Shown here: positions 14,653-58,929 of the stretch, piece by piece
Layout of the letters: every line of letters starts with the position of its first letter
How positions within the stretch are numbered: the stretch's first letter is position 1
Assembly: GCA_963575745.1 (NCBI GenBank)
Contig: CAUYUJ010000314.1
Span: 62,001 to 126,000, forward strand
Source of the DNA: Prorocentrum cordatum
Taxonomy: Eukaryota
Length of the DNA stretch: 64,000 bases
Reading direction: 5' to 3'
Position numbers and translations under genes: made by a program
The notes under the pieces: model-generated
What the model was told of the DNA's origin: nothing
What the model saw: only the letters and a program-made list of their open reading frames with translations
Databases searched by the model: none

Positions 14653-14701
14653 ATGATGATGCTGATAATGCTGCTGCTGATGATGATGATGATGACGACG
14701 G

Positions 14702-14741
<40 letters not shown>

Positions 14742-15023
14742 AATGATGATGACGATGATGATGATGCTGCTGATGATGATGAGGCTGATGATGATGATAA
14801 TGATCATGATGATGATGCTGATGATGATGATGCTGATGATGATGATGATGATGATGATGCTGATGCTGATGATGAGGATGATGAAAATGATGAGGATGAT
14901 GAAAATGTTGATGATGCTGATTATGATGATGATGATGATACTGATGATGCTGCTGACAATGATGATGGTAATGATGATGACGATGATGGCGATGATGCTG
15001 CTGCTGATGATGATGATGATGAC

Positions 15024-15072
<49 letters not shown>

Positions 15073-15187
15073 CTGCGGCTGCTGATGATGATGATGACGA
15101 TGATGATGCTGATGATGATGATGCTGCTGATGATGATGATGACGATGATGATGAGGATGATGATGATGATAATGATGATGTTGATGT

Positions 15188-15223
<36 letters not shown>

Positions 15224-15272
15224 CGATGTTGATGCTGCTGATGATGATGATGATGATGATGATGATGAGGAC

Positions 15273-15306
<34 letters not shown>

Positions 15307-36830: not shown

Positions 36831-37150
36831 ATAGTAGTGGTAGTGGTAGTGGTAGTGGTAGTGGTAGTGGTAGTGGTAGTGGTAGTGGTAGTGGTAGTGG
36901 TAGTGGTAGTGGTAGTGGTAGTGGTATTNNNNNNNNNNNNNNNNNNNNNNNNNNNNNNNNNNNNNNNNNNNNNNNNNNNNNNNNNNNNNNNNNNNNNNNN
37001 NNNNNNNNNNNNNNNNNNNNNNNNNNNNAGTTGTAGTAGTAGTAGTCGTATAGTATATTTTAGTATAGTATAGTATAGTAGTAGTAGTTGTAGCAGCAGC
37101 AACAGTAGTAGTAGTAGCAGCAGTAGTAGTAGCAGTAGTAGTAGTAGTAC

Positions 37151-40695: not shown

Positions 40696-42052
40696 GTCAC
40701 AGGTCTCATGCCGCTCTGAACCACGCTGGCGACTTCGAGCGCAATAGCAGCGGCAGCGGCGGTGGCATTGTTGTATTTTGCCAGCGGCGCTTGCGATGAT
40801 GGCCGCTGTAGTGCCGACGACGGTGGTGACCGTGTTGATGGTCATGATGGCCGCTCTGGCCGTGATGACGATTGGACATAAACGCCCAGGAGATCGGTAA
40901 GTCGGGGATCCGGGGCTCTTGAAGAGTATGCTCAGTTGTCCGGGTTCAGTTTGAGGGTTCTTGAGTGCCTGACGACATTCCTCTCCGTGCTTTGGGGCCT
41001 GCTTTGGGTCTCTTGGGGGCCTCCTGGAGCTTCTCGAGGGCTCTTCGGGGCCTGCTGGCGGTCTCGGGGTCACCTTAGGTCTTCGGGTGGAGGGCTCGAA
41101 ATGTCGGTTCGTGTGAACCCTCTGAACCCTCTCTGGGGCCTCTCTTGCGCCCCTTTTGGGACCCTCTTGGGCCGTCTTGGCGACCTCTTGGGTCGTCTTG
41201 GGTAGCTCTCGGGCCATCTGGGGGCCCTCTTTGGGGCCTCTTGGGGCGATCTTGGGGGTCTATTGGGCCGTCATGCAGCGTCGGAAGCCTGAAAAGGCGA
41301 GACCGCGAACATCCGCCGACAACCTACGGAACATAACTGATGTTGGCGTTTTGGGACCCTCTTGGGATTGCACTTCGAGCCCTTTCGGGGCGTCTTGGGG
41401 ACATCTTGTGCCGTCTCGAGGCCATCTTGGTGTCTTGGAGCGATCTTTTGGCGACTCGAGGCCCTCTTGGACCGTTCTGGGAGCCTCTCGGGGCCCTCTG
41501 GCCCCGTTTTGGGGCGCTCTCAGTTCCGAGCAAGTTGTGCGGTGACACTCCCTGTGCGTGGCACGCCCTGGCAGAACCGAGAATTCGGCGTCTGGGCCTC
41601 GTATTCTTCATTCGCTCAGGACTGAGGATGGAGAAATTCAAGGGGCCTGATGACACTCCAGCTCGTGCCTCATGGCACGGTGGCAGGTAATAGCGACCAG
41701 GGTGCTATCCGGGTGCAGGTCGGGATCTCGCAGTGGTAGTCTGAGGCACACTTCGCGCGATGCGGTGTTGAGGTTGTTATCCGTAAGGGCTTCGCCCCCT
41801 GCCGCCGGCCCCCTCTCTCGGAGAATGGGCCATGGAAGAGCTAAGTCATGAGGCCTTGGCGCTGTCGTGAAGCAGTATCGAAACTTCATGCGAAGCCGAT
41901 TCGCAATCAGCAAAACCAACTGATCACAAGAGGGGTTACCACACCTGGCGATTGGTAAGACGTGTATGGTTTACGGGCTTGGTTACCACACCTTGCGATT
42001 AAAGGGCCGAGGGAGTTCTCGCAGTTTGGGTTACCACGCCTTGCGATGGATG

Positions 42053-42501
42053 TGCGTGAAGGGTGGCACCGAATTTCAGAAATGTAGCAAATCCCTTGTG
42101 TTTTTGGACCCTGACCCCGCGGATCTGCGTGAGGGGTGGCACCGAATTTCAGAAATGTGGCAAATCCCATGTGTTTTTGGACCCTGACCCGCGGATCTGC
42201 GTGAGGGGTGGCACCGAATTTCAGAAATGTGGCAAATCCTCTGTGTTTTTGGACCCTGACCCCGCGGATCTGCGTGAGGGGTGGCACCGAATTTCAGAAA
42301 TGTGGCAAATCCTCTGTGTTTTTGGACCCTGACCCCGCGGATCTGCGTGAGGGGTGGCACCGAATTTCAGAAATGTTGCAAATCCTCTGTGTTTTTGGAC
42401 CCTGACCCCGCGGATCTGCGTGAGGGGTGGCACCGAATTTCAGAAATGTGGCAAATCCCTTGTGTTTTTGGACCCTGACCCCGCCGATCTGTGTGAGGGG
42501 T
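42053..42501. repeat. 73-bp minisatellite, six near-identical copies plus a partial one
   Basis: Unit starts at 42053, 42126, 42198, 42271, 42344, 42417 and 42490. Confidence 0.97.
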
Positions 42502-43259
42502 GTTGATTTCGAGCCCCCCCAGCAATTCAGACAACGCGCCCAGGGGGTGCTAAAATGCCGGTTTGGGCCTCCCCCCCCTCGCGCGGTCAATCAATTAGTT
42601 ACAGTAACCAGCAATAAGCAGAACTGTAACACTGGAAACTACAAGCTACAACTGGTACAGGAAACTGCGAATCCCGCGCCTACAGCCTGGTGGCCCCGCA
42701 AGGGGGCCGGCGGATTTCTGTTAGTAGTGCCGGTCGCCTTGACAGTTGCATTCGAGTGTACTCAGCAGCGCTCACAATAGGCGTAGCATGAGTGATTGTC
42801 GTGAAGTAGTGGCATCAACACTAGTAGCAGTAGCGGTACCACTGTCCGTGCTAACGAGTTGACGATGGCCCAGTGCGGGACAGTAGTTTGCTAGCAGCAG
42901 AATTGTTGAAGAGTGGTTGCAATAGAATGTACAAATGCCTGGAAGCGCTGGTGGTGGGCGGACAGACTGGGAATCAGGGGTGGTGGTGGTTGTGGTGGTG
43001 TGTGTGCTGGCATGGCAGTCGTGCGATGGGTGGTGCGGCGTGATCAGCGCTGGTGGTGAGTTGCAAATGAACTGTTTGGTAGTGCAACCGTGTGGGAATG
43101 TAGTGGCACGTCTGCTGTGACACATCATGGTAGCCTTGTGATGGAAAACGTGATCCTGGCTCTGGGGGGTAAGACCGCGATTGAGCACGAACCGATTCAG
43201 CGCAAACATCGGAAGCAGGAAGCATCTCGGATGCGAGCTTCCAGCGAACAAGCTGTGCC

Positions 43260-43281
43260 TCCATGGCCATATTTGCTCAGG
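43260..43281 (+). promoter_or_regulatory. Older relic DinoSL upstream of the ankyrin-gene start codon
   Basis: TCCATGGCCATATTTGCTCAGG vs DCCGTAGCCATTTTGGCTCAAG: ungapped 16/21, ending 43 nt before ATG 43325. Confidence 0.6.
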
Positions 43282-43324
43282 GCCGAACTCCTCAATCTCC
43301 CCGCTTCCGCTCGTTCGGCTGCCA

Positions 43325-43800
43325 ATGGGCACGTGCGAGTCCAAGGATGGCGCCACGGAGCCAGAGACGACCGCACCGGAACCGCTCCTGGAAGGGCAGA
43401 TCAAAGGTTTGGGTGTTGCCAGAAGCGTCTTGGCCCAATGCCAGCAGCGAGTGAGGGGCGGAAGTGAGACGGGGCGGGCCATCTCAGAAGTCTCCGAAGT
43501 CCCCTGGCCTTCCGAGAAGTTTTCTAAGCCTTCCCCGAAGACGCAGGAAACCTCTCAGAAGACGGCGGGGGCTCCCTCGTTGGCCGCCGGCAAGGTGTCC
43601 CCGGGATCTCCGAAGGGAGGCCTTCCGAGCACCCCCCACGGAGGCCCACCGAGGGCCCCGGGGGCTCCGAGGTGGGCCGAGGAGCTGGGGACGCCCTGGG
43701 CCAGGGACGCCCTCCTGGAGATCTGCCTTCCCGAAGGATTTGCAGCATCGTGCAGCAGCATTGGTGACGCCCTGGGCCCAATCTTTTCGGCGACTCCGAG
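43325..43800 (+). CDS. 5' coding part of the multi-exon ankyrin-domain gene (MGTCESKD...; probable in-frame 249-nt intron 43456-43704)
   Basis: MG-x-C N-terminus; QCQQRVR joins DALLEICLPEGF across an AGGG direct repeat; AG|GC donor at 43801. Its link to the next exon is unresolved. Confidence 0.5.
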
Positions 43801-44132
43801 GCGGTAATGTATGCATGACCACCGCCTGGAGGGTCAGTTTTCGAGTACCTCGGCGGGCGGTGGACATGGACGTATTCGGCCCCCCGGGGGCCACAAGTCT
43901 GTCCACATCCACCGCCCGCTGGGGCACCGGGACGTCGGTTCCCAGGCGGTGGATGTGGACAACTCCCCGCCTCGCAGCGACGCTTCTCGAGCCGGATCGA
44001 CCTGTGAGGGTCCCTGGCGCCCGCCGTGAGAGAGCTGCGGCGCCCAGATCTCAGGGCCTCTGGCAGCCCTCGGAAGGTTTCCCGCCCCACTGGGGGCGCC
44101 CCCCTCGCCACGGCACCAACGCCGCCGAGCAG

Positions 44133-44258
44133 GCCGTGCCCTGGCCCGCGGGCTACGGGCAGGGAAGCGCCTCGACCGCGGAGTGGATCAGGGCGAAGAT
44201 GGCCGCGGACCTCGGTGCGATCCGGCCGTTCCCGCTGGAGTGGGGGGACCCACCGGAG
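44133..44258 (+). CDS. Exon (AVPWPAGYGQGSASTAEWIRAKMAADLGAIRPFPLEWGDPPE)
   Basis: CAG|G acceptor and GAG|GC donor. The peptide resembles VEWPEGWGVGAKSVGEWI formed across the 52544/52756 junction. Confidence 0.65.
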
Positions 44259-45099
44259 GCCGTCATACATCTACAACGCCCCGCGACGCCTGAAGCAAGT
44301 CTTGCCGACCCCCCCCCCTCGCCCCCGCTTTCGGTGTTCCGTGGCGCGCGCGACACGGCCCGCGGACGCTGACGGCACTTTGAAGTCGTTTGTTTCGGCA
44401 TGAGGATTGTCATTTGTTTCGGCCTAAAAATTGAACTTCGGGGGCCTGGGGGTGCCGACGCGGGGCAGGAACAAACTTGCTTCCAGTTTCGCAGAGGGAT
44501 GTAGGCCTCCCAAATGGGGTCCGAGCATATGGGGTCGGGGGATTGCGCCGCTCGCCGATGCGTCGGCGATGCGGCTCGATGCGGGGCCCGATTTTCTCCT
44601 CGCCGACGTCGCGGATACGTCGCCGACGTCGCCGATGCATCGCCGATACATCAACGATGCGCCGACGATGCATCGACGATGCAGCGCGGTCCCCCGACCC
44701 CATCCACTCCGACCCCATTCGGGATGCCTCCTTTTGTGTAGTCCCAGGCATGCAACGTCTTGCACGCATCAGGGCTGATTTTTGGCCGGCGTCTTCGGCC
44801 TCGGGGGGCCCTCGCCAGGCCCCGGGGACCGCCGCGAAAGATTCGGGACGAACAACCGGCCCTGGGGAGGGGGGAGGGAGGAGGCAGGACCAGCGCTCAG
44901 ACTGAAGGGGGGGGTTCGGGCCGTCCTGAGCATCAATCCGCTGCCCCTCTGGGGGGCTATCACGGCAAACGACAGGGACAGCCACGGAGACAGGCGGATG
45001 GCTCTCGTCTCGTGAAACGATCCAGGCTTACATCTCCCCACTCGGTTTACCAATCTTCTCGAGGTCGGTAGGGGCTGACTCAGCTAGTTCTTTGGCCAG

Positions 45100-45340
45100 C
45101 TGGGCCAACGAGGTCGGAACTTCCAAAATTATCGGCGAGTTGGCGGCCCCCTTGGCATGTCTACCCTCCATAGCACGTTGCTTGTGTAGCCTTCTGCCAT
45201 GGTTCGGGGCTCGCCTGGGCACTCGTCTTGGAATCCTCGCGTGCCTTCCGTGAAGGTTCCACACTTCCAGCACAGGATCACACTGAACGGGGTAAAATCG
45301 TCAGCATAACCGAAAAAAGTAGGGCTCGTGTCCACGGGGA
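45100..45340 (-). pseudogene. LINE ORF2 C-terminal Cys motif
   Basis: VILCWKCG...ECPG, the same motif type as the fragment at 16526-16801. Confidence 0.55.
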
Positions 45341-45779
45341 TTGTTCACTAAATCGGCGTGAATCTGGCAAAATCCTGGGCAGGTCTCTCGGGCTCGTCGC
45401 TGCATGGCAGATTGACTGCCGCATCGTTGTCTACAAGCAGCGCGCAGCAAACTTTTCTCCCAGGGGTGCCATTGGTGCTTTCTCGGTCTTTCCGTAGTGG
45501 AGAAGGGGGGAGGGCTCACAGGTGAGGGCGGGGGGGGAAGGTCCCAAGAGGTTCCAGCCGCTGCCGCCCCCGTGGGCGGGTTCTCAAGCTCTGGATTGGC
45601 TTGTCGACAGCTTTGGCACCAACCCTGGGGGCCACTGTTGGCCACAGCAGTAGGGCCTCTGAAACGAAACGAAGGTGCTTTTAGCTAGCAGTTGCTTCTG
45701 CTGCTCCTGGGCTTCGATGTCAGTCTGACTGGGTTGTGAGGCTCGGGCGGCTGCGATCTTAGCATACCTGTCTGCAGCC

Positions 45780-46340
45780 TCGTTGCCTTTGGCCCTTCTC
45801 CGATCAAGAAAGGCAGGCTGAGCTCAGAAATGTTGACGTGCGCTTTGATCTTGTTTAACTCAGTGTGTGAATTACCTACCCCGCTTTCGCTTCCAAGCAA
45901 AACCAAGTCATACCACGCGCCTCCTCGTCAAGCGGCCTGACCAGTACAGGCCGTAGTTTGGCATCGCTTGGTATCTCTTGGAAGCGAGGGTGGTCAAAAG
46001 CGAGGTAGGTTTGTTTCCCCCTATTAACCGCGGCCCCAGAGGGGGTCGAACAGCCGCCGCCCAGGACCTTGAAGGCCCCATAAACAATCGGTCCTGGCGA
46101 GATCGGCCTTCTTATGCACGTCTATGGCTCCTTGATCATCAGCAGCAATCACAGCACAGTGCTCAGCAGCGGGGGAGGAGGAAGGGAGGCGACTGCCCAC
46201 GCGCCCGATGAGGTAGGCAAGAACTTCTCCGTGCCCATCGATCGATATGACCGACCAGCCCGCTACGTTATAAGCTTTACGGCCCCCTGGTTTCAAGCAG
46301 GATCCGTCCGTGAAAATTTCGCCCGTCAGGGCCTCCTCAG
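45780..46340 (-). pseudogene. LINE ORF2 RNase H domain
   Basis: IFTDGSC...AGWSV...SSPAAEHCAVI in ORF 46024-47127, and KIKAHV at ~45835-45855. Confidence 0.82.
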
Positions 46341-47099
46341 GCCTAAGACTAGGGTCTCTGCACCCAAACTCGGCATATTCGAACCCAAACCTCTCAGGAG
46401 CCCCGTTATCGAATTCTGGTTGGAATTGATACCCGTATGCTAAAGCCAGATCAGACACCCTCGAAATCGTGTCAAGCTCGTCTCTCGTAAAAGGCTCTCT
46501 AAGGGCGGCGCTGAGAGGGCAGTGCAAGCGGCGGTGCTTCAAATCATCCCTAGCATGCCAGCGCTGGCACCGGTCGCCTGTATCATAGCCTGCACTCTGC
46601 AGGCGCGCGTTGGTCCAGGTGCTTTGGGTGAGAAAACTAATCCGGGTGGATCTGGCTTTCTTGGGTAAGGTAGGCTCCACCAGTATTTTCCTAGCTATAT
46701 CCACATGAAGGGTCTCCTGGGGGTGTCCTAGCTTCTGGGCTGCCTTCCTAAGGACGACCTGTTCCCAGGCCTCCTGCATCTTTCGCGAAATCATTTTGGG
46801 CGTGCAGGTTGCAAGCGGCAGTCGGGATCCGCTCGCATCCTGCAGCTCAGAAGCAGAAAAGACGCTCCAGTCAATGCTACGCAGGGATAATAAAGCAGCC
46901 CCAAAGGGACCCCTTTCGGCAGCCCGTTTGGAAGGAGGGGCTTGGAGGATGGGCTCAGCGAGGGCCTTCAGTTCTAGGAGTTCCCGAGGATGTTTCGGTC
47001 GGGTCGCAGCGCGCCAAACCGTCGTGGCCCAAGTCAAGGCGGGTCCGAGTCCCGCTCTCCGCGTGGGGTCTTCCAGCACCGCCAGGCTCAGAGATCGAC

Positions 47100-48640
47100 T
47101 GCGCGTCGCGCGAAGGGGGCCCGCCATCTTAATGTGCTCAGTCTGGAGGCTCTGGAGCTCTTGTCGACGCCAACCGCTTCCGTGCCATGCGTGCGGGACG
47201 GCTGAAGTCCCGTCTTCCAGAGTTTACGTGTGTCCCCTCCCGCAATCCTTATGGCCCGTATTCGGTGCCGTCTGTTGTTCTGCCTAACGAAGCGTTTGTA
47301 CAGGGTGGCCTTGGCGAGTCTTTTCTTGCATCTAAGACGCGAGGCCCCCGCGGAGCTATCCGTGCCCAAATCGGTGGCTGCATGTGCATCGGTCGGGCCT
47401 GCGTATTCCCCAAGGCCTTCCGCAGGAGTCCACGCAGTCTGGCGGTGGAAACTATGACCTGGGCCTCGTGCAATGCGAGCTTGCAGTCTAACTCGTCCTG
47501 CGCGAGGTTGGCGAGCCTAGCCGCGGAGCGTTGCAACTGTCGGACTAGGGCTTGCGGATCGTAATGTTAGCGTCCCAGGAATAGGTCGTCTATAAACGTC
47601 TGCAGGTCCGTGCCCTGGGGGTTTTTGAAGGTCCAGGCGTCCAAAGGGCCCAGGTTGTAAACTTGAACTAAAGGAGGTCGCCCATCCACAACCAGCTGCA
47701 ATACCTCGGGTAGGGTGGTCCACAACTTGGACCAGGTTTCGGGTTGCAACAAGTCTCGCGCTGCTGTACTGGCTTAAACTGACCTTTCAGAAGGACGCTG
47801 CTAAAGCTTGTGTCGTGGGCCCTCTCTATCAGCTTCTGGTGATTCAGGTGCTCATAGTAGTTGCTGAGGTCCCACGACGCAGCTCCTGAGTGAAGCGGCT
47901 CTCGGCAGATCACTCCGTGCTCCGCCTTGAGACTCTGGCGAACAACAACTTCGGTGATACTCTGTCCCGCCTGGTGGGCTAGGAACGGGCGTCGGTGTAT
48001 GGCCTCCCATCGTCGGGCTTCTCTTTGTCGGACCTTGGACCAACTTCAGTACATCCCTGGCACCATCCCAGTGCCTCGGAACTGGGCAGTAGTTCGTTGG
48101 GTGTTTTTTTGGCTTTTTTTAGGGGCCAGGACCGAGATCATCGCTTGCAACTGGGTGGGCATATCACTTATCTTCTCGACAAGATGCTGGAAGCGACAAA
48201 CTAGGCCATCTTGTTCACGCGTCAGGCTCTGGAAATGCTCGGGGTGAAGTCCGTCCCAAGCCGAGGCCGTTGCATGCGAGTGCTGTTTGGCGGCGTCAAT
48301 GAGGTCCTGGGGCTCGATTGGGGAGAGATATGGCTCAAGTGGTCCTGGGGACGCATGGTATTGAGGCCTTTCCTCCGTAGTATCCCAAAGGTCACTGAGT
48401 CGCTCGGCTTCGAATTCCAGTAACATCGAGGGTCGGCCCGTCCAGATGCCTTTCCTGGGGATTTCTTCGGGGCTCCACGCGTCCAGGTTCTGCGCCCATC
48501 TGTGGGCCCACCCAGCACTGCCTTGCGTGCCCACCCGTGCCCGCTCGTGCCGAGCTTTCGTACCATCGCGTTTTTCAAACTCGACCTCCTGGCCCAGATT
48601 CTTCGATTTTCTCCAGAACTTCATCCAGGGCAGCACGTCC
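47100..48640 (-). pseudogene. LINE ORF2 reverse transcriptase domain, disrupted
   Basis: Motifs TASAWDGLHP, LAPKK, WSKVR, WDLSNYYEHLNH, RGIAAGCGWAT and catalytic FIDD (47585-47596), spread over several frames. Confidence 0.9.
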
Positions 48641-48979
48641 CAGATCGGGGCGCAGGACCTTGGCAGTCACATCCAAAACAATGCCAATCAGGAACTGGCG
48701 GGTAGTCTCTAGGCGCTCGGAGAAACTCTGGCTCGTTAAACTCGGGTGCATCCTCGAGGCACTCGGTAATCTCGCCGAGGTCGTTGGCGTCTAACTTCGC
48801 TAACTTGAAGTTGAGCTGCTGTGCGATATTCCTAAGCCATCGTAGGGGTCCAGCGCGAGACTTCCAGGCGAATCGGTGTTCTTTCAAACGTTGTTTCGCC
48901 TGGATCCACTTGACCCTGGGATGACGAGCCTTGGGCCGAGAAGTCGTTTTCAAAACCGTGCCAGTCAATTCGGCAATCG

Positions 48980-49900
48980 TTACCCCGCGGTCCGTGGCCA
49001 GAAAGTGATAGACTTGATCAAGGGCAGCTTGGTTTCCCCCTGGATCGGCGCGGCAGTCTCGTTATTCAGGATCCCCTCTGCGGCGTCGAGCGCTGCTTCC
49101 GTGGTTATCCACTCTCGCTCTGGGGGCTTGGGCCCAAAAACAGGCTGGGTGGGCAGGCGTTGCGGCTTGCAAAGAACAGGGGCTGTGAATTTCTGTCCCA
49201 CCTTGATGCAACTGCTTACTGGGCGGTGTGGGGACAGTGGATATGCTGTGCGCACTCGGGGGTCATGAAGTACATGTTGCAGACATCCACTATAAACAAA
49301 TCGATCCAAACAGCTCTGGGAGGTCCTAGTTCTGCGCGTGGGGGAGGAGGGGTGTATGATTTGCATGCCAGCGCGCTGTGTGAAATCGTGCTTCCTGAGC
49401 TTGGTGGGGCACATTGAAACCTCCTGCTATGCACATAGGTATTTGATTCCCATTGTGTAAAATGGCGGTGACCGCCAGCACGTTCAAGTTGGTCTAATTC
49501 AAGTCGGTGCTAACTTGCCTGCGCGCGGATAGAATTCTTATGATACCGAGTCCAGGCAGCTCTACCCTGGCACCAGCCAGGCGTCCCTGTGGAAGAACTT
49601 CTTGAGCTTCCCTTGGAATTTTCATGTCCTGGATCCCGAAGTCAAAACCATCCTGAAACAAAGCAGAATCTCCAGCTGACGGGGTGCCCGTAGAACTGAT
49701 TGCGCCCATCTCAAACACAATTTTCCATCCATGTCGCTCATGCCACTGACTGGCGTAAGTGATAGACTGCGTGGTGCGCAGCTTTGTCTCCTGTGCGCGG
49801 ATGACGTGGTCATCTGTGGCGTGCTCAGAACGGATGTACTCTTTGACCTGCGGCCAGCAGCTGCTGTTGATGGTAGTGATGCTGATGTTGCTACCCACGC
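48980..49900 (-). pseudogene. LINE ORF2 apurinic/apyrimidinic (APE) endonuclease domain, frameshifted
   Basis: Motifs ISITTIN, AQETKL, GWK...TGTPSAG, IAGGFN (GDFN equivalent), CLDRFV and LSPHRPV (SDH equivalent). Confidence 0.85.
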
Positions 49901-51059
49901 GCTGGGACCGCAGGACGCTCTGCGGCATGTTGGGCAGCAGCAGTCTCCGCCGTGAGCTTGAGCTTCTTGCTGGCTTCTTCGCCGTGGAGCTCCTGCTTGG
50001 CGATGTTGGCCTGGCAATTGACGAGCTGTTCGGCGGCGCGCTTCCTGGCGGCCTCCATCTGCGCGTCATCGTCGCTGGGGACAGGGTGGACAGAGGCATC
50101 TGGGGGAACCTCAGCCTTGATAGGCTCGCCCTCAGGATCCTGGCCCGCCCTTGGGAGTGGTTCTTCGTCGTCAGCTCTATCCTAGGCCTTGATCCTCTCC
50201 TGGTCGTTGCTGTTCTCCTCCGTCGCCTTCTGCTGGTGCTCGATGGTCACGAGAATCTTCGCCATGGCCAGGAGGTGTTGGTCGAGTTCTTTCGGGATGT
50301 GGTCAGCAGGCTTGTCGATCCTCGCAGCGATGAGGGAGCGCATGGCATCTGACATCGGCACTTCTGCGCCATGCGCTGGGCCGCTGTCTGCTGGGCCACC
50401 TGCAACTGCGTCTGCAGGCGGTACACGTCCTTGTGGGCCTCTTGGTAGTCGTCCAAAGCTCTGGCGTGCTTCTCTGCGACGAGGACCAGCTGCTGGGTGA
50501 GCTGGTTGACCGTGTTCTTGCTGCGTCCGAGCTTTCGCTTGGCCTGTCCGAGCTGGTCGGTGAGGCTCTGGACTTGCTTATCTGGAGTCTTCTCTTGTAG
50601 GGCACGCTGCTTCGCCTGCTTGAGACATTCGACCGCGTCTCGATACTCTTTGTTGCCGTCACCTTTCCACTGCTTCCAGAAAGCCACCTGCGCCTCGGCC
50701 AACTCGATGGCGGAGCTGTGCTCCACAGCAGGCTTGGTGGCGATGGCGGCCTGGCATCCGTCGAGGTGAGGCTCAGGCGCAACAGGGGGTGCTGGCCGAG
50801 CTGCTGCTGGTGGATCACGAGATCGTCTTCGCCATCGTCCACGTCCTGCCTTCGGCTGCCCTGCTTCTCCTGCGAATGAGACTTGGCGCGGCCGCTGGGA
50901 ACGAGAGGAGGCACCCGTGGCAGACACGTCATCTCCTGCGGACATCTTCTTTGTAGCGAGCTTTGTGCCACATTTGGTGCAATGCGAAGCTCCACGATCC
51001 GCCCATGTCCAGCCGCTGCAGCCGTGCCAGGGGCAGGCGAGATACTTGCCCTGCGCCAT
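49892..51059 (-). pseudogene. LINE ORF1 (N-terminal Zn-ribbon-like Cys motif plus coiled coil)
   Basis: ORF 50247-51059 starts MAQGKYLACPWHGCSGWTWADRGASHCTKCG and has a heptad-like segment (VQSLTDQLGQAKRKLGRSKNTVNQLTQQL). It continues after a frameshift (~50370) and a stop (~50183) to ~49892. Confidence 0.75.
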
Positions 51060-51248
51060 CCCGCCTCCTTCCTAAGCAGTAGAACGATTCCCAGGACGAG
51101 TAGTGCAAGAAGGCCCCGCGGGTGGGGCGGGTGGTCCACACGCTGCTGTGGACGAAACGTGGCCAGAACGGTCTGAGCCTTGGCTGCGGCGGACAGCCAA
51201 AGCTAATCGCTGGTTCTCGGGCGTCGACAGCCCTTTACAACGTTTAGC

Positions 51249-51270
51249 CTTGAGCCAGAATGGCTCCGGG
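51249..51270 (-). promoter_or_regulatory. Relic dinoflagellate spliced leader (DinoSL) at the LINE 5' terminus
   Basis: Minus strand reads CCCGGAGCCATTCTGGCTCAAG vs DCCGTAGCCATTTTGGCTCAAG: 19/21 identity over the invariant part, about 190 nt upstream of the ORF1 ATG. Confidence 0.9.
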
Positions 51271-51436
51271 AGGGAGGAGGGAGGAGGGAGGAGGGAGGAG
51301 GGAGGAGGGAGGAGGAGGAGGAGGGAGGATGGAGGAGGAAGAGGAGGGAGGAGGGAGGAGGGAGGAGGGAGGAGGGAGGAAGGAGGAGGGGGGAGGGAGG
51401 AGGGAGGAGGGAGGATGGAGGAGGGAGGAGGGAGGA
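51268..51436. repeat. (GGGAGGA)n heptamer tract abutting the LINE 5' end
   Basis: Direct reading of the sequence. Confidence 0.9.
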
Positions 51437-51725
51437 ACATCAGCCAGACGTCGCATGTCTCGGGTCGGCCGCGCGCCCAGGGGTGAAGAGGCCGGGGGGG
51501 GCGGGCCCCTCCAGAAGGCGCAGGATGCCCCCAGCCTTCCGAGAAGCTTTCGGGGGCCCCTCCGAGGGCAGTGGCGGCTTCTCAGAAGACCGGGTGGCTG
51601 TGGAGATGCCCCGCCGCCTCGTGTGGCAAGAGCCGAGGTCTCTCAGCTTGCCTCGTGCGTTTGCGTGGCGAGTCTTTGTGTGCCCCACCAGCAGCGGAGC
51701 CTCGGCCGAGCATGCTTGCAGTCAG

Positions 51726-51779
51726 GTTGCTGCAGCATGGCAAGGTCCAAAGGTGGACATTGCTGATTTGTGGTCGATG
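51726..51779 (+). CDS. Exon (VAAAWQGPKVDIADLWSM)
   Basis: CAG|G acceptor and ATG|GC donor; phase 0 with the flanking predicted exons. Confidence 0.5.
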
Positions 51780-51998
51780 GCAGGACAGTGTCGCAGGCCT
51801 AGAGGTTGACACCAACACCAAGATCGGCGGTGTGCCTCCACCGAGGGAAGACGATCCCGATCTCTGTGATGGTGGTAATATTCTTGCTGCCAAGGTGACC
51901 GAAATATTACCACCAACACCGAAATCGAGGATCATCTTCCCCCTGTGGAGGCAACCCCCTGTGCTGGTGTTGGTGCCAATTTCCGGGCCTCCCACATG
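51780..51998. mobile_element. Palindromic MITE-like element flanked by an 18-bp direct repeat
   Basis: Imperfect fold-back 51795-51990. GCTG(A/G)TTTGTGGT(C/T)GATG occurs at 51762-51779 and 51999-52016. Confidence 0.7.
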
Positions 51999-52181
51999 GC
52001 TGGTTTGTGGTTGATGTCGGGCGCTCCGGGCGAGTGGCAGGCGTCACCGCTCCCAGTGCCTGTCGGCTCGGCGAGGACGCATCGTGCTTCACTCTGCCTC
52101 AGCACCCCGGCGAGGCAACAAACATGCCAAGTCATGAGCAGGCTTCCCCCTGCCTCTTCCCCTTGCTGGCGCGCTGCCCAG

Positions 52182-52544
52182 GCAGGCTCAGAGGGGGACG
52201 CATCGCTCCCCCATCGCCCAGGGGCCCGAGAGCCCGTCCCGCCTGGGAACCTGCGGTCTCGCCATCGGGGGACTGCCACCGACGTGTCGGCGAAGCACCG
52301 CGAGTCTTGCCTTCCGCCGGTTTCCCGTATCGCTGGCCCTCGGGAAAGCGGATCCGGTGTTCTTGTCGCCAACTTTCGGCCTCCAGGGGCCCTCCCTGGG
52401 CTCCGGGACCGTGACGAAACCGCTCCGGACGAAGAGCTGGGCCCTTGGGAAAGCTCCGGGATCCAGGACCCGCTTCCATCAGGATCCGTTTCCTTCGTGC
52501 CAGCGGAGGCCGGGCCAGAAGGCGGCACCGTGGAGTGGCCCGAG
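52182..52544 (+). CDS. Exon (low-complexity linker ending GTVEWPE)
   Basis: Pyrimidine tract plus CAG|G acceptor; GAG|GT donor; open frame. It may contain one more small intron. Confidence 0.55.
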
Positions 52545-52755
52545 GTGGAATGAGAGCAAGAACAGCACAAGCATAAATGTTCGGAGCTCCGCTTGGATTT
52601 CTTGGATCGGCGTTGGACCCCGCCCCCGTGGCGGCGCATTCGGCGCCGTCCCTTGCGCGCGGAGCGCGCCAGGGGGGGGGTTCCAATGTCGGTTCAAGAA
52701 ATCCGCGTGGACCTCCAGAAGTTTATGTATATGCCCTTGTTCCTTCTTCTGCGAG
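52545..52755 (+). mobile_element. Introner-like intron: ~80-bp imperfect TIRs with CGAG duplication
   Basis: The left arm (CATAAATGTTCGGAGCTCC...GGATTTCTTGGATCGGCGTTGGA) matches the reverse complement of the right arm (TCCAATGTCGGTTCAAGAAATCC...GGACCTCCAGAAGTTTATG). CGAG ends both the upstream exon and the intron. Confidence 0.75.
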
Positions 52756-53414
52756 GGCTGGGGGGTGGGCGCCAAGTCCGTGGGCGAGTGGATTAGCCAG
52801 CGCATCCTCGAGGCAGAGGAGGCTGCCCTGGGCGGAAAAATGTCGCTGACCGCTGAGGAGGAAAGTCTCTGGAAGGAACAGCAGAAGGCAGTCGAGAAGT
52901 GGGAGGTGAAGGAGATCATGCAGTTCCTCGCCTGCGCGAATATCCAGTGGGGGGTGGACGACGAGAAGAGCCAGCTTGTCCACTTGGTCCAGACAGTTCA
53001 GCGCCAGACGCTAGAGAGATACTTAGACAAAGTGACGAAGCCTAAAACTGATGTGGACAGGGCTAAGGTCTGGAAAGAAGCTGTGGACGAGTTCTTGGGC
53101 ACTTGTCTTGACTCCATTAACACACGTCCCCCTACGAGAAAGTTCGGCTTCATTCATATTGCAGCCATGCATGGCAATGTCGATGTGCTCACTCAGTTGG
53201 TTAAGCTTAGCGCCGACGTATTCTTGAAGGCTGACGATGGCCGCACAGCCAGGGAGATCGCTCAGAAGCAGGGCCACACGGCCGCCGAGGAGTACCTCGC
53301 CGCGGTGGAGCACCGCCACACGCTGGCATCCCACAAGACGAACCAGCTCATCCAGGACGAGCTCGCGAGCATCGGCCAGGAGTCGCTGCAGCCGCGCATG
53401 TTCAAGAGGAACAG
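52756..53414 (+). CDS. Exon encoding ankyrin repeats
   Basis: GFIHIAAMHGNVDVLTQLVKLSADVFLKADDGRTAREIAQKQGHTAAEEYL fits two ankyrin repeats. GAG|G acceptor and CAG|GT donor. Confidence 0.88.
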
Positions 53415-53599
53415 GTCGGCGGCGCGCCGAGGCCCTCTCGAGGCTCGGCAGGCCTCCTGCCCCCACGGAGGTCCTCTGAGCCCCCCCGAAGACGCAGAAT
53501 AAACCTCACAGAAGGCCGGAGGGCTTCCGAGGAGCCCCGCCGCCCTCAGAGAAGGCGTTTCCCCCCTCTCACCCTCCCCGCGGGCGCACCGCCGAGCAG
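53415..53599 (+). mobile_element. Introner-like intron: 13-bp TIR with CAG duplication
   Basis: Starts G-TCGGCGGCGCGCC and ends GGCGCACCGCCGA-G-CAG (12/13 inverted match). Internal sequence is shared with 43500-43570 and 51510-51600. Confidence 0.72.
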
Positions 53600-53747
53600 G
53601 GACACCATGTTCATCTACGAGTACGACTCCCATTTCACCGCCTACAGCAAGCTGTCCCAGCAGCTGGGGTGGGATTGCTCCGCCATCTCCATCCAGAAGG
53701 GAGTGACCAAGCTAACGACGAAGTTCGAGCCGCGCGGGACGACCAAG
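53600..53747 (+). CDS. Exon (RDTMFIYEYDSHF...PRGTTK)
   Basis: The phase-2 junction AG+G restores an Arg codon in frame; AAG|GC donor; GC3-rich codons. Confidence 0.78.
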
Positions 53748-54527
53748 GCGACGGGCCTCGCGGACACTCGGAAGCGCCCCTTCATATCAAGAACGCTGCG
53801 CGCCCACCGCCCGCCCACCTCTGGGTCTTCGCCAGAGGAGCCCAAGACGGCCCCGAGACGAGATGAGGCGTGCCGAAAAAATCGAAGATGAGATTGAAGG
53901 TGAGCTGTGCGTCTCTTCCTGCGCTCCATGTATCATGGCGCCAACATCGCCGAGTGGATGTCGTTCGGAAAACGATAGGATGAGCCCGGAGTGTCCTGGA
54001 GAATTTCGTTTCGGATTTCGAGGTGAATTTCGTGCGGGTTTTGCTTGGCCAGGAATGAAAACTAGACAGAAAATCCACGCGAAATTCAATTTGTTTTTCA
54101 CCCGCCGTTCTGGGGTTTTGCATGGACAGAAATCCACGCGACAATCCGCTGCAGCACGTCTGCAAGGTGTGTATTATCCTTCGTCCCATCGCCGATATGG
54201 CTCTAGCGTGCCGTGTGGCTCATCGACGGTTCGATCCCCGTCGGATCGTCGGTCCACCGTCATTGACAACGAAGCTCTGATGTGGGGCGCTGGCTCTCTA
54301 TTCTCGTGTTGGCCCTCCACGGCAGGGGGCGAGGAAAAGCGAGAACGCGGCCCAGTGTTACCTCAAGACGATTTGGAAATGGCCATGGAGGGCACCAAGA
54401 AGAGCCGCTGAGGGCCCCGAGATGGCCGCCAAGAGGGTCCAAGAAGGACTATGGGGTCCACGAGGATTCTTCGAAGGCCCAATTCCCGCGATGGGCCCAA
54501 GCCCCGTCCGAACATCATCCGTTCCAG

Positions 54528-54599
54528 GCCTGGGGTGCAAGGTGTTTCCCGGACAGGTATTTCAACGGTGTAGATATGAAATATTCAGCCTTTCCACCG
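54528..54599 (+). CDS. Exon (AWGARCFPDRYFNGVDMKYSAFPP)
   Basis: CAG|G acceptor, CCG|GC donor, phase 0. Confidence 0.5.
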
Positions 54600-54648
54600 G
54601 CGGGCCCAAGCATTTGCAGTAAAAGGCTCTAGTGCGACCCTGGTGCAG

Positions 54649-54906
54649 GCGAAAATCATTGAATCGAACGGGCTTGGACATGCTTTTAGCGGGTTCGACT
54701 TGTCGGTGAAGTTGGGACGAAGAGGCGCTCTCTGGGCCCAAAGAGACGATCGTGGAGGCCAAGAATGGGCCCAAGATGGGTCAACATGGAGTGACAAACT
54801 GCACCGAAAGGCTGGTGGTCACGATCTTGAGTTCTATCTAGTCCTGTACGTCGTTTTTGGGCCGTCATTGGGCCCCCAAGAATTGCAGAGCCTCCTCTGG
54901 AGTTAA
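54649..54906 (+). CDS. Probable terminal exon (AKIIESNGLGHAFSGFDL...LLWS*)
   Basis: CAG|G acceptor in phase 0, open to TAA. The true end could be earlier. Confidence 0.45.
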   Translation, partial: AKIIESNGLGHAFSGFDLSVKLGRRGALWAQRDDRGGQEWAQDGSTWSDKLHRKAGGHDLEFYLVLYVVFGPSLGPQELQSLLWS

Positions 54907-55207
54907 ATCTTAAATGATGCTTCCAGAGTTGAATCCCACACGCCCCTCAGACTGGTAGGCGGGCGGATTCAAGACGCTTCGCATTCGCTTTCCGCCCTTT
55001 CTCATTCTCGCCAGAAAAGAGCTGAACACGGCCCCAGAATGAGCCGAGTGTGTGCCAAACGAAGTCCAAGACGGCCCCGCAGGAGGCCCCAAGCGGTTCC
55101 ACTGTTTTGTGTTCGTTTTCTTATTCATTATTCCCCGTATCCTAATATGGGGTTCTTGTTCTTACTTGGACGCCTCCTACTCCCTCCTCTTTTCCTCCCC
55201 TCCTCTC

Positions 55208-55465
55208 GGACTTACTCATACTCAGATTTACTCATACCCAGACTTACTCATACACAGACTTACTCATACTCAGACATACTCATACTCAGACCTACTCATA
55301 CTCAGACTTACTCATACCCAGACGTACACATACACATACTCACTCATACACAGACGTACTCATACCCATACTTACTCATACCCAGACGTACTCATACACA
55401 GACTTACTCATACACAGACTTACTCATACTCAGACCTTCTCATAGACAGTCTTACTCATACGCAG
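55208..55465. repeat. 16-bp tandem repeat CAGACTTACTCATAC(A/T/C)
   Basis: About 15 units. Confidence 0.92.
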
Positions 55466-55859
55466 GCTTATTCAACACAGAAGATTCGGAGCATGTCTCA
55501 GGCGTGGCGCTGGTTTCAGCACCCCAAAGGGGCGCCGCCAGGGGTGTTTTCACGAGCCCGTTCGCGGCGAGTTTGTGGGGATGTCTCAGGCGGTTTGGCT
55601 GTTTTGGCGGGCAGACCCGTCTGCGTTTAGAGTAGTTTGTCAGGATGTCTCAGGCGGGGCGCTGGTTTCAGCACCCCTCAAAGGAGCCGCCAGTGGGTAG
55701 GACCCGGGCCCGTTCGCGGCCAGTTTGTGGGGTTGTCTCAGGCGGTTTGTCCGTTTTCATGCCCAACATCCTTGGCTTTCAGATCAGATTTTGAGGATGT
55801 CTCAGGCGGGGCGCTGGTTTCAGCACCCCACATCCTCATCCTCATCAGCGCGTGATACT

Positions 55860-57523: not shown

Positions 57524-58929
57524 NNNNNNNNNNNNNNNNNNNNNNNNNNNNNNNNNNNNNNNNNNNNNNNNNNNNNNNNNNNNNNNNNNNNNNNNNNNNN
57601 NNNNNNNNNNNNNNNNNNNNNNNCTCAGGTCACGGCATCTGGGAGCTCAGAATTGCGAGGACCTCTCATGCGACAGAGGTCGGACACTCTTTCTTGCGGC
57701 ATCTGTGAGCCCCGAGATGCCACGAAACTGGTGGTCCTGTCAGTTTCGCCTGAGACATCCTCGCAACTCTTGGCTTGGGGCATTTTTCGCCTTAGACATC
57801 GTCGCAACTCTGGGCCCATGTATGTCCTGACCTATGGTGATCTTCGACTCGCCCGAGACATCCTTGTAACTCAGAGCTCTTCGTTGTTTTCCTTGTGTTT
57901 CTTTTTGTTTATAGGCGTCGAAGGAATCTGCGCATCCCCCCTGTGACCTGACGAACGGTTGTGACGAGCAGTTCTGGTGAGTGGTTGGCAAGTGGATTCG
58001 AAATGATGTTCCCGCTGGGGGGCAGCCAGCGCACGCGCTGCGGGGCAGCCGACGCGCTCCCGCGGCGCCAAGAGGGCGGCGAGCGCGCGCAAGGAGCAGG
58101 CAGAGCATTGAAGGGCATTCCCTGGTTTTGTCGCTGCGCCATTGTAGAACTCCCGTGGTAGAGTCCTTGGCGGCGTCGGCGTTGACGACGGCGGCGACGA
58201 CGAAGCGCCCCGTGGCAGCGGCGACGGTGAAGGCGATGCCGAATACGGTACGACGAACGCGGCGACAGCGACGAGTAAGATGACGACGCGACAGCGTCGA
58301 CGGCGACGGTGGCGCGGACTACGTGTGCGGGGGCGACCGCAACGACGGCGACGACGGCAGCGGCGGCGGCGGCGACCACGATGGCGATGCGACGACGACG
58401 ACAGCGACGACGATCACCACCGCTGCGGCGGCGACGTGGACGACGCCGATTTCCTATGTGGATTTTTTGTGAACCTTATGTGGGGTCCGGCGACGGGGGG
58501 GAAAGGCAGGGGCAAGATAATGAGAAGGCAACGAGGAGGGCGGGGACGAGGCAGAAAATGAGGAGAAGGACCACGCAACGACGACGACGCCATCATCGGA
58601 AACGGTGGCGGCGACGGCTGTCACGACCACCATGGTGAAAGCGGCGCGTGCCGCGATGATGTCAACGACGACAACGATGACGACAGCGCCGGCGGCGTTG
58701 GCGGCGCCGGCAACGACGACACCGACGACAACCATGCCCAAGACAATGGCGACGACGGCGGCGACAGCGGCGGCTTCGGCGGCGGCGGCGACGACGAGGA
58801 CAGCGGTGGTGATGACGACGACGAAGAAGACGACGACGACGACGACGACGACAACGGAGACGACGACGACGGGTACGATGTCAATGACGACGCCGACGAC
58901 CACGACGATGGCGACGAGGAAGCACCCCC

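What the first reader, a model, noticed from the sequence alone, without database searches (positions are those of the whole stretch)
43260..54906. Candidate retrogene re-colonised by introns
Seen: a 16/21 ungapped SL relic lies 43 nt before ATG 43325, yet the gene has at least eight predicted exons and several introns show TE hallmarks. Inference: an intronless retrocopy gained its introns later through Introner insertion and then received a LINE. That would record a full retroposition plus intron-gain cycle at one locus.
Basis: partly seen in the sequence, partly recalled or inferred. Interest (0 to 1): 0.7.

Follow-up and report, generated by a model that had tools for sequence, protein, structure and literature searches.

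The report
Leader-tagged dinoflagellate gene with transposon-made introns
This is the front half of a real, expressed dinoflagellate gene that carries a worn copy of the messenger-RNA leader in front of it and has introns that look transposon-made, an ordinary combination in these genomes, and the proposed order of events remains untested.

Summary
The core observation holds. A 16/21 match to the DinoSL core lies at 43261-43281, 43 nt before ATG 43325. That ATG opens a gene whose product is colinear with full-length homologues starting MGNC/MGNTC.

The gene model needs correcting. Homology supports five exons: 43325-43406, 44077-44258, 52509-52544, 52756-53414 and 53600-~53786. The first exon has 82 coding bases, not about 480. 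Nothing supports exons in 53787-54906. The C-terminal ~430 residues are not in the window.

All four introns are bracketed by direct repeats of 7, 9, 5 and 4 nt. Intron 4 has 12/13 terminal inverted repeats and intron 3 is a long palindrome.

Intron 2 (8.25 kb) holds a dead minus-strand LINE.

The proposed order (intronless retrocopy, then Introner gain, then LINE) fits the relative decay of the parts. It could not be tested: no orthologous genomic locus was reachable and read mapping failed. Leader-tagged genes with normal intron numbers are already described in dinoflagellates (PMC5585692).

Verdict: a well-preserved example of known processes, of moderate to low interest.

The parts
43260..43281 (+). 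Decayed DinoSL relic: 16/21 to the core, 17/22 with the degenerate first base. It lies 43 nt before the start codon.
   Evidence: Markov expectation is 0.23 sites of >=16/21 per window, both strands. The longest exact run is 5 nt.
43325..43406 (+). Exon 1 (82 nt, ends in phase 1). It encodes MGTCESKDGATEPETTAPEPLLEGQIK, with an N-terminal MG..C like the homologues.
   Evidence: alignment to P0152 (MGNCEAKE...). P0005 starts MGNTCS.
43407..44076 (+). Intron 1 (670 nt, GT..AG). It is bracketed by the 7-nt direct repeat AAGGTTT. It has a near-terminal inverted repeat (9/10) placed symmetrically, 11 and 12 nt from the ends. It holds a segment shared with introns 2 and 4.
   Evidence: (21 of 500 shuffles reach the inverted-repeat score). 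(43471-43576 resembles 51498-51551 and 53475-53528 at 76-79%).
43794..43977 (.). 184-nt palindromic element nested in intron 1, including 17-nt perfect arms. It is not an intron of its own: the frame does not close across it.
   Evidence: I2, I3, I7. Frame reasoning. Junction fixed.
44077..44258 (+). Exon 2 (182 nt), encoding GFPPHWGRPP...FPLEWGDPPE.
44259..52508 (+). Intron 2 (8250 nt, GC..AG), bracketed by the 9-nt direct repeat CGGAGGCCG (44254-44262 and 52504-52512). No terminal inverted repeat. It is filled with later insertions.
   Evidence: (inverted repeat not significant, 152/500). Junction.
44503..44729 (.). Palindromic MITE-like element in intron 2 (49-nt arms, 82% complementary).
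   Evidence: (self-match E 7e-18).
44890..51269 (-). Dead LINE-like retrotransposon of about 6.4 kb. It has an ORF1 (ATG 51059, zinc-knuckle-like N-terminus plus coiled coil). After that come broken frames with endonuclease-like, RT-like (FIDD), zf-RVT and RNase H-like stretches. It is flanked by GGAGGGA-type repeat on both sides, which suggests insertion into a microsatellite.
   Evidence: three-frame reading; motifs read by eye. (Pfam zf-RVT only, E 1.1e-3, below cut-off). (Atlas leads zf-RVT/RNase_H, score 0.94). (44866-44889 resembles 51385-51408 at 96%).
51249..51269 (-). Near-intact DinoSL relic (19/21) forming the 5' end of the LINE.
   Evidence: the only site in the window with <=3 mismatches. 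0 of 100 shuffles had any.
51270..51440 (.). (GGAGGGA)n microsatellite abutting the LINE 5' end.
51789..51996 (.). 208-nt palindromic element in intron 2 (three nested arm pairs).
   Evidence: (self-match E 1e-29).
52509..52544 (+). Exon 3, a 36-nt micro-exon encoding AGPEGGTVEWPE.
   Evidence: aligns to AGPAGDTVEWPE of P0152.
52545..52755 (+). Intron 3 (211 nt, GT..AG). Almost the whole intron is a palindrome (73-nt arms, 71%). It is bracketed by the 5-nt repeat CGAGG. A relative lies at 33236-33328.
   Evidence: (E 9e-10 self-match; E 3e-10 to 33236-33328)..
52756..53414 (+). Exon 4 (659 nt), the 'ankyrin exon'. Pfam Ank_2 matches only weakly.
   Evidence: E 1.3e-3, below cut-off.. Its words are held by RNA runs.
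53415..53599 (+). Intron 4 (185 nt, GT..AG). Terminal inverted repeats of 12/13 start at intron base 2 and end 4 nt before the 3' end. It is bracketed by the 4-nt repeat CAGG, which supplies both splice sites.
   Evidence: 1 of 500 shuffles.. Its removal from RNA fits the 0.73 share of words.
53600..53786 (+). Exon 5. Homology to all three homologues stops after RKRPFI. The 3' boundary is unresolved: there is no GT/GC/GA donor, and an in-frame stop follows at 53889-53891 if the exon is read on.
53787..54906 (+). No homology or other support for exons was found.
   Evidence: no hit of homologue residues >383 anywhere in the window. (no Pfam family).

Best explanation
The locus is the 5' half of a real, transcribed, multi-exon nuclear gene of a GC-rich dinoflagellate, probably Prorocentrum-like. 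It encodes an N-terminally MG..C-tagged protein of a dinoflagellate family of unknown function with a weak ankyrin-like region.

Shown:
- Five exons (43325-53786) are colinear with full-length homologues.
- Four introns are each bracketed by short direct repeats. Three of the four have terminal or whole-intron inverted repeats.
- Intron 2 holds a dead LINE whose 5' end is an almost intact spliced leader.
- A decayed leader-like sequence lies 43 nt before the start codon.

Inferred mechanism:
1. Long ago an SL-capped mRNA of this gene, or at least its 5' end, was reverse-transcribed and integrated. This left the leader in the DNA.
2. The four introns seen today were made by insertion of small non-autonomous DNA transposons of the Introner-like type. 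The target-site duplication supplies one or both splice sites, so splicing restores the reading frame.
3. Intron 2 then grew from about 1.9 kb to 8.25 kb, when a trans-spliced LINE RNA was copied into a microsatellite inside it.

The order relic, then Introner-like introns, then LINE fits the relative decay of the parts. It is not demonstrated, and neither is the claim that the retrocopy was intronless at birth.
For: Gene and exons:
- The spliced model aligns to P0152 residues 1-383 without junction gaps.
- tblastn places P0001 on 44145-44258, 52747-53409 and 53601-53786.
- 20 run rows in 8 studies (2 rows on record as poly(A) RNA) all hold 0.73 of the words of 52740-53900. That fits exons without intron 4. 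By my arithmetic, about 0.70 is expected if exon 5 ends at 53786, and 0.885 if intron 4 were kept.

Relic:
- 16/21, with the expectation figures.

Introns:
- Direct repeats of 7, 9, 5 and 4 nt.
- A sum of >=25 has P=4e-4 under a second-order Markov null conditioned on AG|G at both ends.
- Intron 4 inverted repeat 12/13, reached by 1 of 500 shuffles; intron 1 inverted repeat 9/10, reached by 21 of 500.
- Intron 3 is a palindrome.
- Among 4000 pseudo-introns drawn from the window, 4.1% show both a direct repeat >=4 and an inverted-repeat score >=7.5. Two or more of 4 then has P of about 0.01.
- Segments are shared between introns 1, 2 and 4, and intron 3 has a relative at 33.2 kb.
- These signatures match published Introner-like elements: 4- or 8-nt target-site duplications, and one class with both splice sites drawn from the duplication (Roy et al. 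preprint, part 1 of the full text read).

LINE:
-.

Relative decay:
- Gene relic 5/21 mismatches, LINE relic 2/21, intron 4 inverted-repeat arms 1/13.
Against: - The relic fails the published 9-mer criterion (longest exact run 5). Window-wide, 13 of 60 simulations give a match at least as good.
- With the raw window as null, the summed direct-repeat length is not significant (P=0.11). That null is inflated by microsatellites.
- Intron 2 has no terminal inverted repeat. The terminal 45 nt of intron 3 are not significant on their own.
- Copies of the intron elements outside the window could not be counted.
- Pfam finds no RT or endonuclease domain in the LINE frames.
- The large protein search with the RT-like frame found nothing.
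- A search of solved-structure (PDB) sequences with the endonuclease-like frame also found nothing.
- Decay comparisons rest on 13 to 21 positions and assume neutrality. With the lower confidence bound of the relic's divergence, the intron 4 arms are not significantly younger (my arithmetic).
- Roy et al. estimate about one intron gain per kb per unit dS in Symbiodinium. Four gains in 1.15 kb after a moderately old retroposition would be many.
- The 3' end of the gene is missing from the window, so no poly(A) remnant or flanking duplication of a retrocopy can be sought.
Confidence: 0.5

Rival explanations
1. A fully spliced, intronless retrocopy was later recolonised by Introner insertions, which created every intron now present. 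It then received the LINE.
For: - Relic before the start codon.
- All four visible introns have insertion-type direct repeats.
- 2 to 3 of 4 introns have inverted repeats, against a 4.1% chance rate in pseudo-introns.
- Introner elements were reported in 2.4% of introns of Prorocentrum cordatum (supplement passage of PMC10666404). That definition differs from mine.
- The intron 4 arms are less decayed than the relic.
Against: - Nothing shows an intronless stage.
- The timing of the insertions relative to retroposition is unknown.
- The published gain rate makes four gains in 1.15 kb unlikely.
- Leader-tagged genes in Symbiodinium have as many introns as other genes. The authors explain this by retained introns.
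- The downstream introns of this gene are unseen.
Confidence: 0.3
2. The introns are older than the relic. Either an SL-capped but unspliced or partly spliced pre-mRNA was retroposed with its introns, or only the extreme 5' end was replaced through a cDNA. The insertion signatures then date from the parent gene.
For: - This is the published reading for intron-bearing leader-tagged genes (PMC5585692 passages; PMC6050394 passages).
- Intron numbers of tagged and untagged genes are alike: 3.74 against 4.17, and 16.74 against 17.1 (Table 2, seen).
- Target-site duplications carry no timing information.
Against: - It requires retroposing a pre-mRNA with all introns, including an intron 2 of about 1.9 kb before the LINE arrived.
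- The intron 4 inverted-repeat arms (1/13) look fresher than the relic (5/21), which is weak evidence.
- A 5'-only replacement would have to end within the 125 nt between the relic and intron 1.
Confidence: 0.25
3. The 16/21 match is chance. This is an ordinary vertically inherited gene that happens to have transposon-derived introns and a LINE in one of them.
For: - 13 of 60 simulated windows hold a >=16/21 match somewhere.
- No exact run longer than 5 nt.
- No second relic lies nearby. No other site of >=14/21 lies within 10 kb upstream on the + strand.
Against: - The position and strand are right. The expectation within 500 nt upstream of a homology-fixed start codon is about 9e-4.
- The window holds 3 sites of >=16/21 against 0.23 expected. 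One of them is certainly real.
- Relics are common in this genome according to earlier notes of this scan (unchecked leads).
Confidence: 0.18
4. The copy in the window is a 3'-truncated or rearranged gene fragment. It ends soon after 53786 and makes a shortened protein of about 416 residues that lacks the conserved C-terminal domain.
For: - Homology to all three homologues stops at the same residue, and no GT/GC/GA donor is there.
- Reading on gives an in-frame stop at 53889-53891.
- No C-terminal homology exists anywhere in the window.
Against: - A mean intron length of 4.7 kb and a mean gene length of 24.5 kb are reported for P. cordatum. A next intron longer than 10 kb is therefore unremarkable.
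- A 100-N scaffold gap lies at 57524-57623.
- A 149-residue C-terminal fragment of this family is annotated in P. cordatum and could be the missing end.
- The 0.73 share of words slightly favours an exon end near 53786 over read-through to 53900 (my arithmetic, about 1.6 standard errors).
Confidence: 0.15

Closest known systems
DinoSL-relic 'retrogenes' (recycled cDNAs) of dinoflagellates: Song et al. 2017 (PMC5585692), Song et al. 2018 review (PMC6050394). Slamovits and Keeling 2008 is known to me only through those papers' citations.
   Same: A DNA-encoded leader-like sequence lies on the sense strand shortly upstream of the start codon of an expressed gene. The gene contains introns, as reported for many such genes.
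   Different: - The relic is far more decayed (16/21, no 9-mer) than the published detection criterion requires.
- No parental copy, second relic or 3' end is available.
- Here the introns show insertion signatures. Those papers do not analyse such signatures (passages read only).
Introner-like elements / introner elements of dinoflagellates: Roy et al. 2020 preprint 10.1101/2020.10.14.339549; Dougan et al. 2023 (PMC10666404), which uses the definition of Farhat et al. 2021.
   Same: - Short introns (185 and 211 nt) are made almost wholly of an inverted-repeat element.
- They are bracketed by 4-5 nt direct repeats that overlap the splice sites.
- For intron 4, both splice sites come from the duplicated CAGG. 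This resembles the class in which both sites are recruited from the target-site duplication.
- The 7- and 9-nt repeats at introns 1 and 2 recall the 8-nt classes.
   Different: - The Symbiodinium-type signature (a tetramer GHNN repeated at the 5' splice site and after the 3' splice site, with CT at +5/+6) is not met by any of the four introns (read).
- Family size was not measurable.
- Intron 2 has no terminal inverted repeat.
Spliced-leader-capped LINE copies noted earlier in this same genome by this scan (e1-7626221, e1-7625319; AI notes).
   Same: A non-LTR element whose 5' end is the spliced leader. This implies that it was copied from a trans-spliced RNA.
   Different: - There is a single relic only, with no trailing older relics.
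- This copy is dead and sits in antisense inside an intron.
- No sequence relation to the noted copies was found (0 look-alike windows).

Membership tests
DinoSL-relic retrogene | A leader-like sequence on the sense strand within 500 bp upstream of the ORF. | tested here: met
   16/21 at 43261-43281, 43 nt before ATG 43325.
DinoSL-relic retrogene | At least a 9-nt exact match to DinoSL (criterion of PMC5585692, also word size 9 in PMC8045281). | tested here: not met
   The longest exact run is 5 nt (sequence; criteria read).
DinoSL-relic retrogene | A parental copy with fewer relics, and the retrocopy lacking most parental introns. | not testable with these tools
   No genome is held. The metagenome scan returned only 2 transcript-like contigs.
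DinoSL-relic retrogene | Transcripts with a fresh leader followed by the relic. | not tested
Introner-like element (intron-creating DNA transposon) | Direct repeats (target-site duplication) bracketing the intron and overlapping a splice site. | tested here: met
   7, 9, 5 and 4 nt in 4 of 4 introns. P=4e-4 under the Markov null, but 0.11 under the raw-window null.
Introner-like element (intron-creating DNA transposon) | Terminal inverted repeats at or near both intron ends. | tested here: inconclusive
   - Intron 4: 12/13, 1 of 500 shuffles.
- Intron 1: 9/10, 21 of 500 shuffles.
- Intron 3: long palindrome, but its terminal 45 nt are not significant.
- Intron 2: none.
Introner-like element (intron-creating DNA transposon) | Many similar copies forming introns in unrelated genes. 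| not testable with these tools
   Only within-window relatives were found: a segment of about 55 nt shared by introns 1, 2 and 4 at 76-79%, and an intron 3 relative at 33236-33328 at 74%.
Introner-like element (intron-creating DNA transposon) | The intron is absent at the same position in related genomes (recent gain). | not testable with these tools
   No orthologous genomic locus was available.
Non-LTR retrotransposon (LINE) | Reverse transcriptase domain. | tested here: inconclusive
   - No Pfam RVT hit in 12 frames.
- RT-like motifs, including FIDD, were read by eye.
- zf-RVT E 1.1e-3, below the cut-off.
- Atlas leads zf-RVT/RNase_H.
- No hit.
Non-LTR retrotransposon (LINE) | Flanking target-site duplication and a defined 5' end. 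| tested here: inconclusive
   The 5' end is the 19/21 leader. The flanks are both GGAGGGA-type repeat, so a duplication cannot be told from the microsatellite.
Ankyrin-repeat protein | A Pfam ankyrin family above the gathering score. | tested here: not met
   Ank_2 19.7 bits against a cut-off of 27.3 for the window exon. The results are similar for P0152 and P0005, and nothing is found for P0001.

The most novel reading that the evidence does not exclude
The locus records a complete cycle. An SL-capped, spliced mRNA was copied back into the genome as an intronless gene. It was then re-fragmented by at least four independent Introner-type insertions whose target-site duplications still bracket the introns. 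Finally one of the new introns was invaded by an SL-capped LINE.

If this is general, rapid Introner recolonisation, rather than retention of parental introns, would explain why leader-tagged dinoflagellate genes have as many introns as untagged ones. My two literature searches found no paper that tests that link.
Probability: 0.25. Interest if true: 0.55.

Novelty: new member of a known kind. Interest (0 to 1): 0.33.

Why it matters
Dinoflagellates combine very high intron density, massive retroposition and active intron-creating transposons. The published observation that leader-tagged 'retrogenes' carry as many introns as other genes has been explained by retroposition of unspliced RNA. The alternative, fast re-gain of introns through Introner-like elements, can be tested genome-wide by comparing insertion signatures in introns of tagged and untagged genes. 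This locus is a concrete case where both marks coincide.

As it stands it is one more example of three known processes: leader relics, transposon-derived introns and SL-capped LINEs. The corrected gene model, and the fact that the LINE carries the best leader relic in the window, are the solid results.

Tried and rejected
1. Read mapping. No junction, transcript start or SL-plus-relic evidence was therefore obtained.
2. Own genome. None is held.
3. Orthologous genomic loci. The metagenome scan returned 2 of 209 candidate stretches, both short, intronless and transcript-like, covering only the C-terminus. They are of no use for intron positions.
4. Same-species protein models. Two large searches found only P0001 and P0152. 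The representative library gave one full-range relative, P0005, among the 150 listed; the rest match only the ankyrin-like stretch.
5. LINE identity by databases.
   - Pfam on 12 frames gave only the sub-threshold zf-RVT hit.
   - The PDB sequence search gave 0 hits. A second query was rejected for a stop codon and not repeated.
   - The big protein search gave 0 hits.
   - The earlier-findings sequence look-up gave 0 hits.
6. Whole-window direct-repeat search. It was swamped by microsatellites, so it was replaced by BLAST of the intron segments.
7. Palindrome 43794-43977 as an intron of its own, as the long first ORF would require. Rejected: neither a GT nor a GC donor there closes the frame with the acceptor at 43977. 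P0152 joins ..GQDI directly to AFPDHW.
8. An alternative acceptor at 43977 for intron 1 keeps the frame but adds 33 residues that are absent from P0152. Not favoured, and not excluded as an isoform.
9. A U12-type AT-AC intron starting at ATATC after 53783. Left unexplained.
10. Rfam scan of the window: 0 matches.
11. Earlier findings near this place and by the P0152 sequence: nothing.

Full report
**What the window is**

The window has about 0.59 G+C and carries spliced-leader relics. It belongs to a dinoflagellate. Earlier notes of this scan call the genome Prorocentrum-like (unchecked). The G+C content matches the 59.7% reported for Prorocentrum cordatum (PMC10666404, passage). No whole genome is held for the window.

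**Checking the observation**

- The stretch 43261-43281 matches the 21-nt DinoSL core at 16 of 21 positions, ungapped. The core is as printed in PMC5585692 and PMC8045281.
- T at 43260 fits the degenerate first base.
- ATG 43325 follows after 43 nt.
- The window holds three sites of >=16/21 on either strand: 9579+, 43261+ and 51249-.
- Sixty Markov simulations gave a mean of 0.23 such sites per window, and 13 of 60 had at least one.
- The match alone could therefore be chance. Its strand and its place just upstream of a start codon that homology fixes independently make chance unlikely, at about 9e-4 for a 500-nt upstream zone (my arithmetic).
- It has no exact run longer than 5 nt, so the published 9-mer screens would miss it.

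**The gene**

The ankyrin-like exon found three full-range relatives:

| Protein | Length | Relation to the window exon |
|---|---|---|
| P0001 | 762 aa, 5'-truncated | 59% identity |
| P0005 | 774 aa | 44% identity |
| P0152 | 809 aa | 71% identity |

- P0152 starts MGNCEAKE and P0005 starts MGNTCS. The frame at ATG 43325 starts MGTCESKD.
- tblastn placed P0001 on 44145-44258, 52747-53409 and 53601-53786.
- Guided by P0152 I set five exons: 43325-43406, 44077-44258, 52509-52544, 52756-53414 and 53600-53786.
- The conceptual product aligns with P0152 residues 1-383, with no gap at any junction.
- The 43.3-kb exon and the ankyrin exon therefore belong to one gene, joined through two small exons.
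- Pfam gives only sub-threshold ankyrin hits for the exon and for the homologues. The family is otherwise uncharacterised.

**Expression**

- 20 run rows from 8 studies all hold 0.73 of the sampled words of 52740-53900. Two rows are on record as poly(A) RNA and the others are guessed.
- By my arithmetic, about 0.70 is expected for exons 4 and 5 without intron 4 if exon 5 ends at 53786. About 0.80 is expected if it runs to 53900, and 0.885 if intron 4 were retained.
- The holders therefore look like spliced RNA.
- Read mapping, which would have shown the junctions, failed.

**The 3' end**

- Homology to all three relatives stops after RKRPFI at 53786.
- No GT, GC or GA donor is there. Reading on gives a stop at 53889-53891.
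- The C-terminal ~430 residues, which are strongly conserved, are nowhere in the window.
- A 100-N gap lies at 57524-57623.
- P. cordatum introns are reported to average 4.7 kb (supplement passage).
- A 149-residue C-terminal fragment of this family is annotated in P. cordatum.
- I think the gene continues beyond the window. A truncated copy is a rival reading.

**The introns**

Each intron is bracketed by a direct repeat that overlaps the splice sites.

| Intron | Coordinates | Length | Flanking repeat |
|---|---|---|---|
| 1 | 43407-44076 | 670 nt | AAGGTTT |
| 2 | 44259-52508 | 8250 nt, GC donor | CGGAGGCCG |
| 3 | 52545-52755 | 211 nt | CGAGG |
| 4 | 53415-53599 | 185 nt | CAGG |

Statistics on the direct repeats:
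- Conditioned on AG|G at both ends, a second-order Markov null gives P(>=7)=0.021 and P(>=9)=0.0019. It gives P=4e-4 for a sum of 25.
- The raw window as null gives 0.11, but it is inflated by its microsatellites.

Inverted repeats:
- Intron 4 has 12/13 terminal inverted repeats that start right after the left repeat copy (1 of 500 shuffles).
- Intron 1 has a 9/10 pair placed symmetrically, 11 and 12 nt from its ends (21 of 500).
- Intron 3 is nearly all palindrome (73-nt arms; self-match E 9e-10) and has a relative at 33236-33328.
- Intron 2 has none.

Further points:
- A segment of about 55 nt is shared by introns 1, 2 and 4 at 76-79%.
- Among 4000 pseudo-introns from the window, 4.1% show both a direct repeat >=4 and an inverted-repeat score >=7.5. 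Two or more of four then has P of about 0.01.
- These are the marks of Introner-like elements as described by Roy et al., including a class in which both splice sites come from the target-site duplication.
- None of the four introns fits the specific Symbiodinium tetramer-plus-CT pattern.
- In P. cordatum, introner elements were reported in 2.4% of introns under a somewhat different definition.

**Intron 2 and the LINE**

- On the minus strand, 51249-51269 matches the leader at 19/21. It is the only site in the window with three or fewer mismatches, and 0 of 100 shuffles had any.
- About 190 nt further along the minus strand an ORF1 starts (ATG 51059).
- Broken frames follow, with endonuclease-like, RT-like (FIDD), zinc-knuckle and RNase H-like stretches down to about 45.7 kb (read by eye).
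- Database support is thin:
  - Pfam zf-RVT E 1.1e-3, below the cut-off.
  - Atlas leads to zf-RVT/RNase_H clusters.
  - Nothing.
- Both flanks are GGAGGGA-type repeat, so the element probably landed in a microsatellite.
- It is a dead, SL-capped LINE of a kind already noted elsewhere in this genome by this scan.
- Intron 2 also holds two palindromic elements, 44503-44729 and 51789-51996.
- Intron 1 holds another, 43794-43977. Frame and homology show that it is nested and is not an intron.

**Order of events**

- The gene's relic has 5/21 mismatches, the LINE's has 2/21, and the intron 4 arms differ at 1/13.
- This fits the order retroposition first, Introner-type insertions later and the LINE last.
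- The counts are tiny, neutrality is assumed, and the difference disappears at the lower confidence bound of the relic's divergence.
- Target-site-like repeats show that the introns were made by insertion. They do not show that this happened after retroposition.
- No paralogous or orthologous genomic locus could be reached, so intron positions could not be compared.

**What is known**

- About 23% of Symbiodinium genes carry leader relics.
- Their intron numbers equal those of other genes.
- The authors favour retroposition before splicing (PMC5585692, passages).
- The 2018 review speaks of retrogene introns 'either novel or inherited' (PMC6050394, passages).
- Roy et al. show Introner-driven gain in dinoflagellates (first part of the text).
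- Two searches found no paper that links the two processes. This is a statement about those searches only.
- bioRxiv supplements and most journal supplements were not seen and might bear on it.

**Verdict**

The retrogene-then-intron-gain story is plausible, at about 0.25-0.3, but untested. The components are all known kinds.

Noticed in passing
window 51249-51269 (-): This is the best spliced-leader relic of the window (19/21). It belongs not to the gene but to the antisense dead LINE inside intron 2, and it forms that element's exact 5' end.
   Followed up: yes
window 9579-9599 (+): A second 16/21 leader-like site (with T before it). No gene start was sought downstream.
   Followed up: no
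window 53784-53800 (+): Homology to three homologues stops at one residue, with no GT/GC/GA donor. Unexplained.
   Followed up: partly
window 15323-15422, 36929-37028, 57524-57623: Three runs of exactly 100 N (scaffold gaps of unknown size). The last one lies downstream of exon 5 and could hide exons.
   Followed up: partly
window 33236-33328: A relative (74% over 98 nt) of the palindromic intron 3 element lies 19 kb upstream, so that element is a repeat family.
   Followed up: partly
window 41900-42600 and 55150-55650: Tandem repeat arrays flank the locus. They are visible as repeated peptide units in every frame of the ORF lists.
   Followed up: no
window 14540-17300 and several other places: Long purine-rich GAG/GAA-type microsatellite arrays dominate the repeat search and give spurious poly-E protein hits.
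   Followed up: no
P0153: A 149-residue protein annotated in Prorocentrum cordatum is a C-terminal fragment of this family. It has an unrelated predicted start, which suggests a split or mis-modelled gene in the public annotation.
   Followed up: partly
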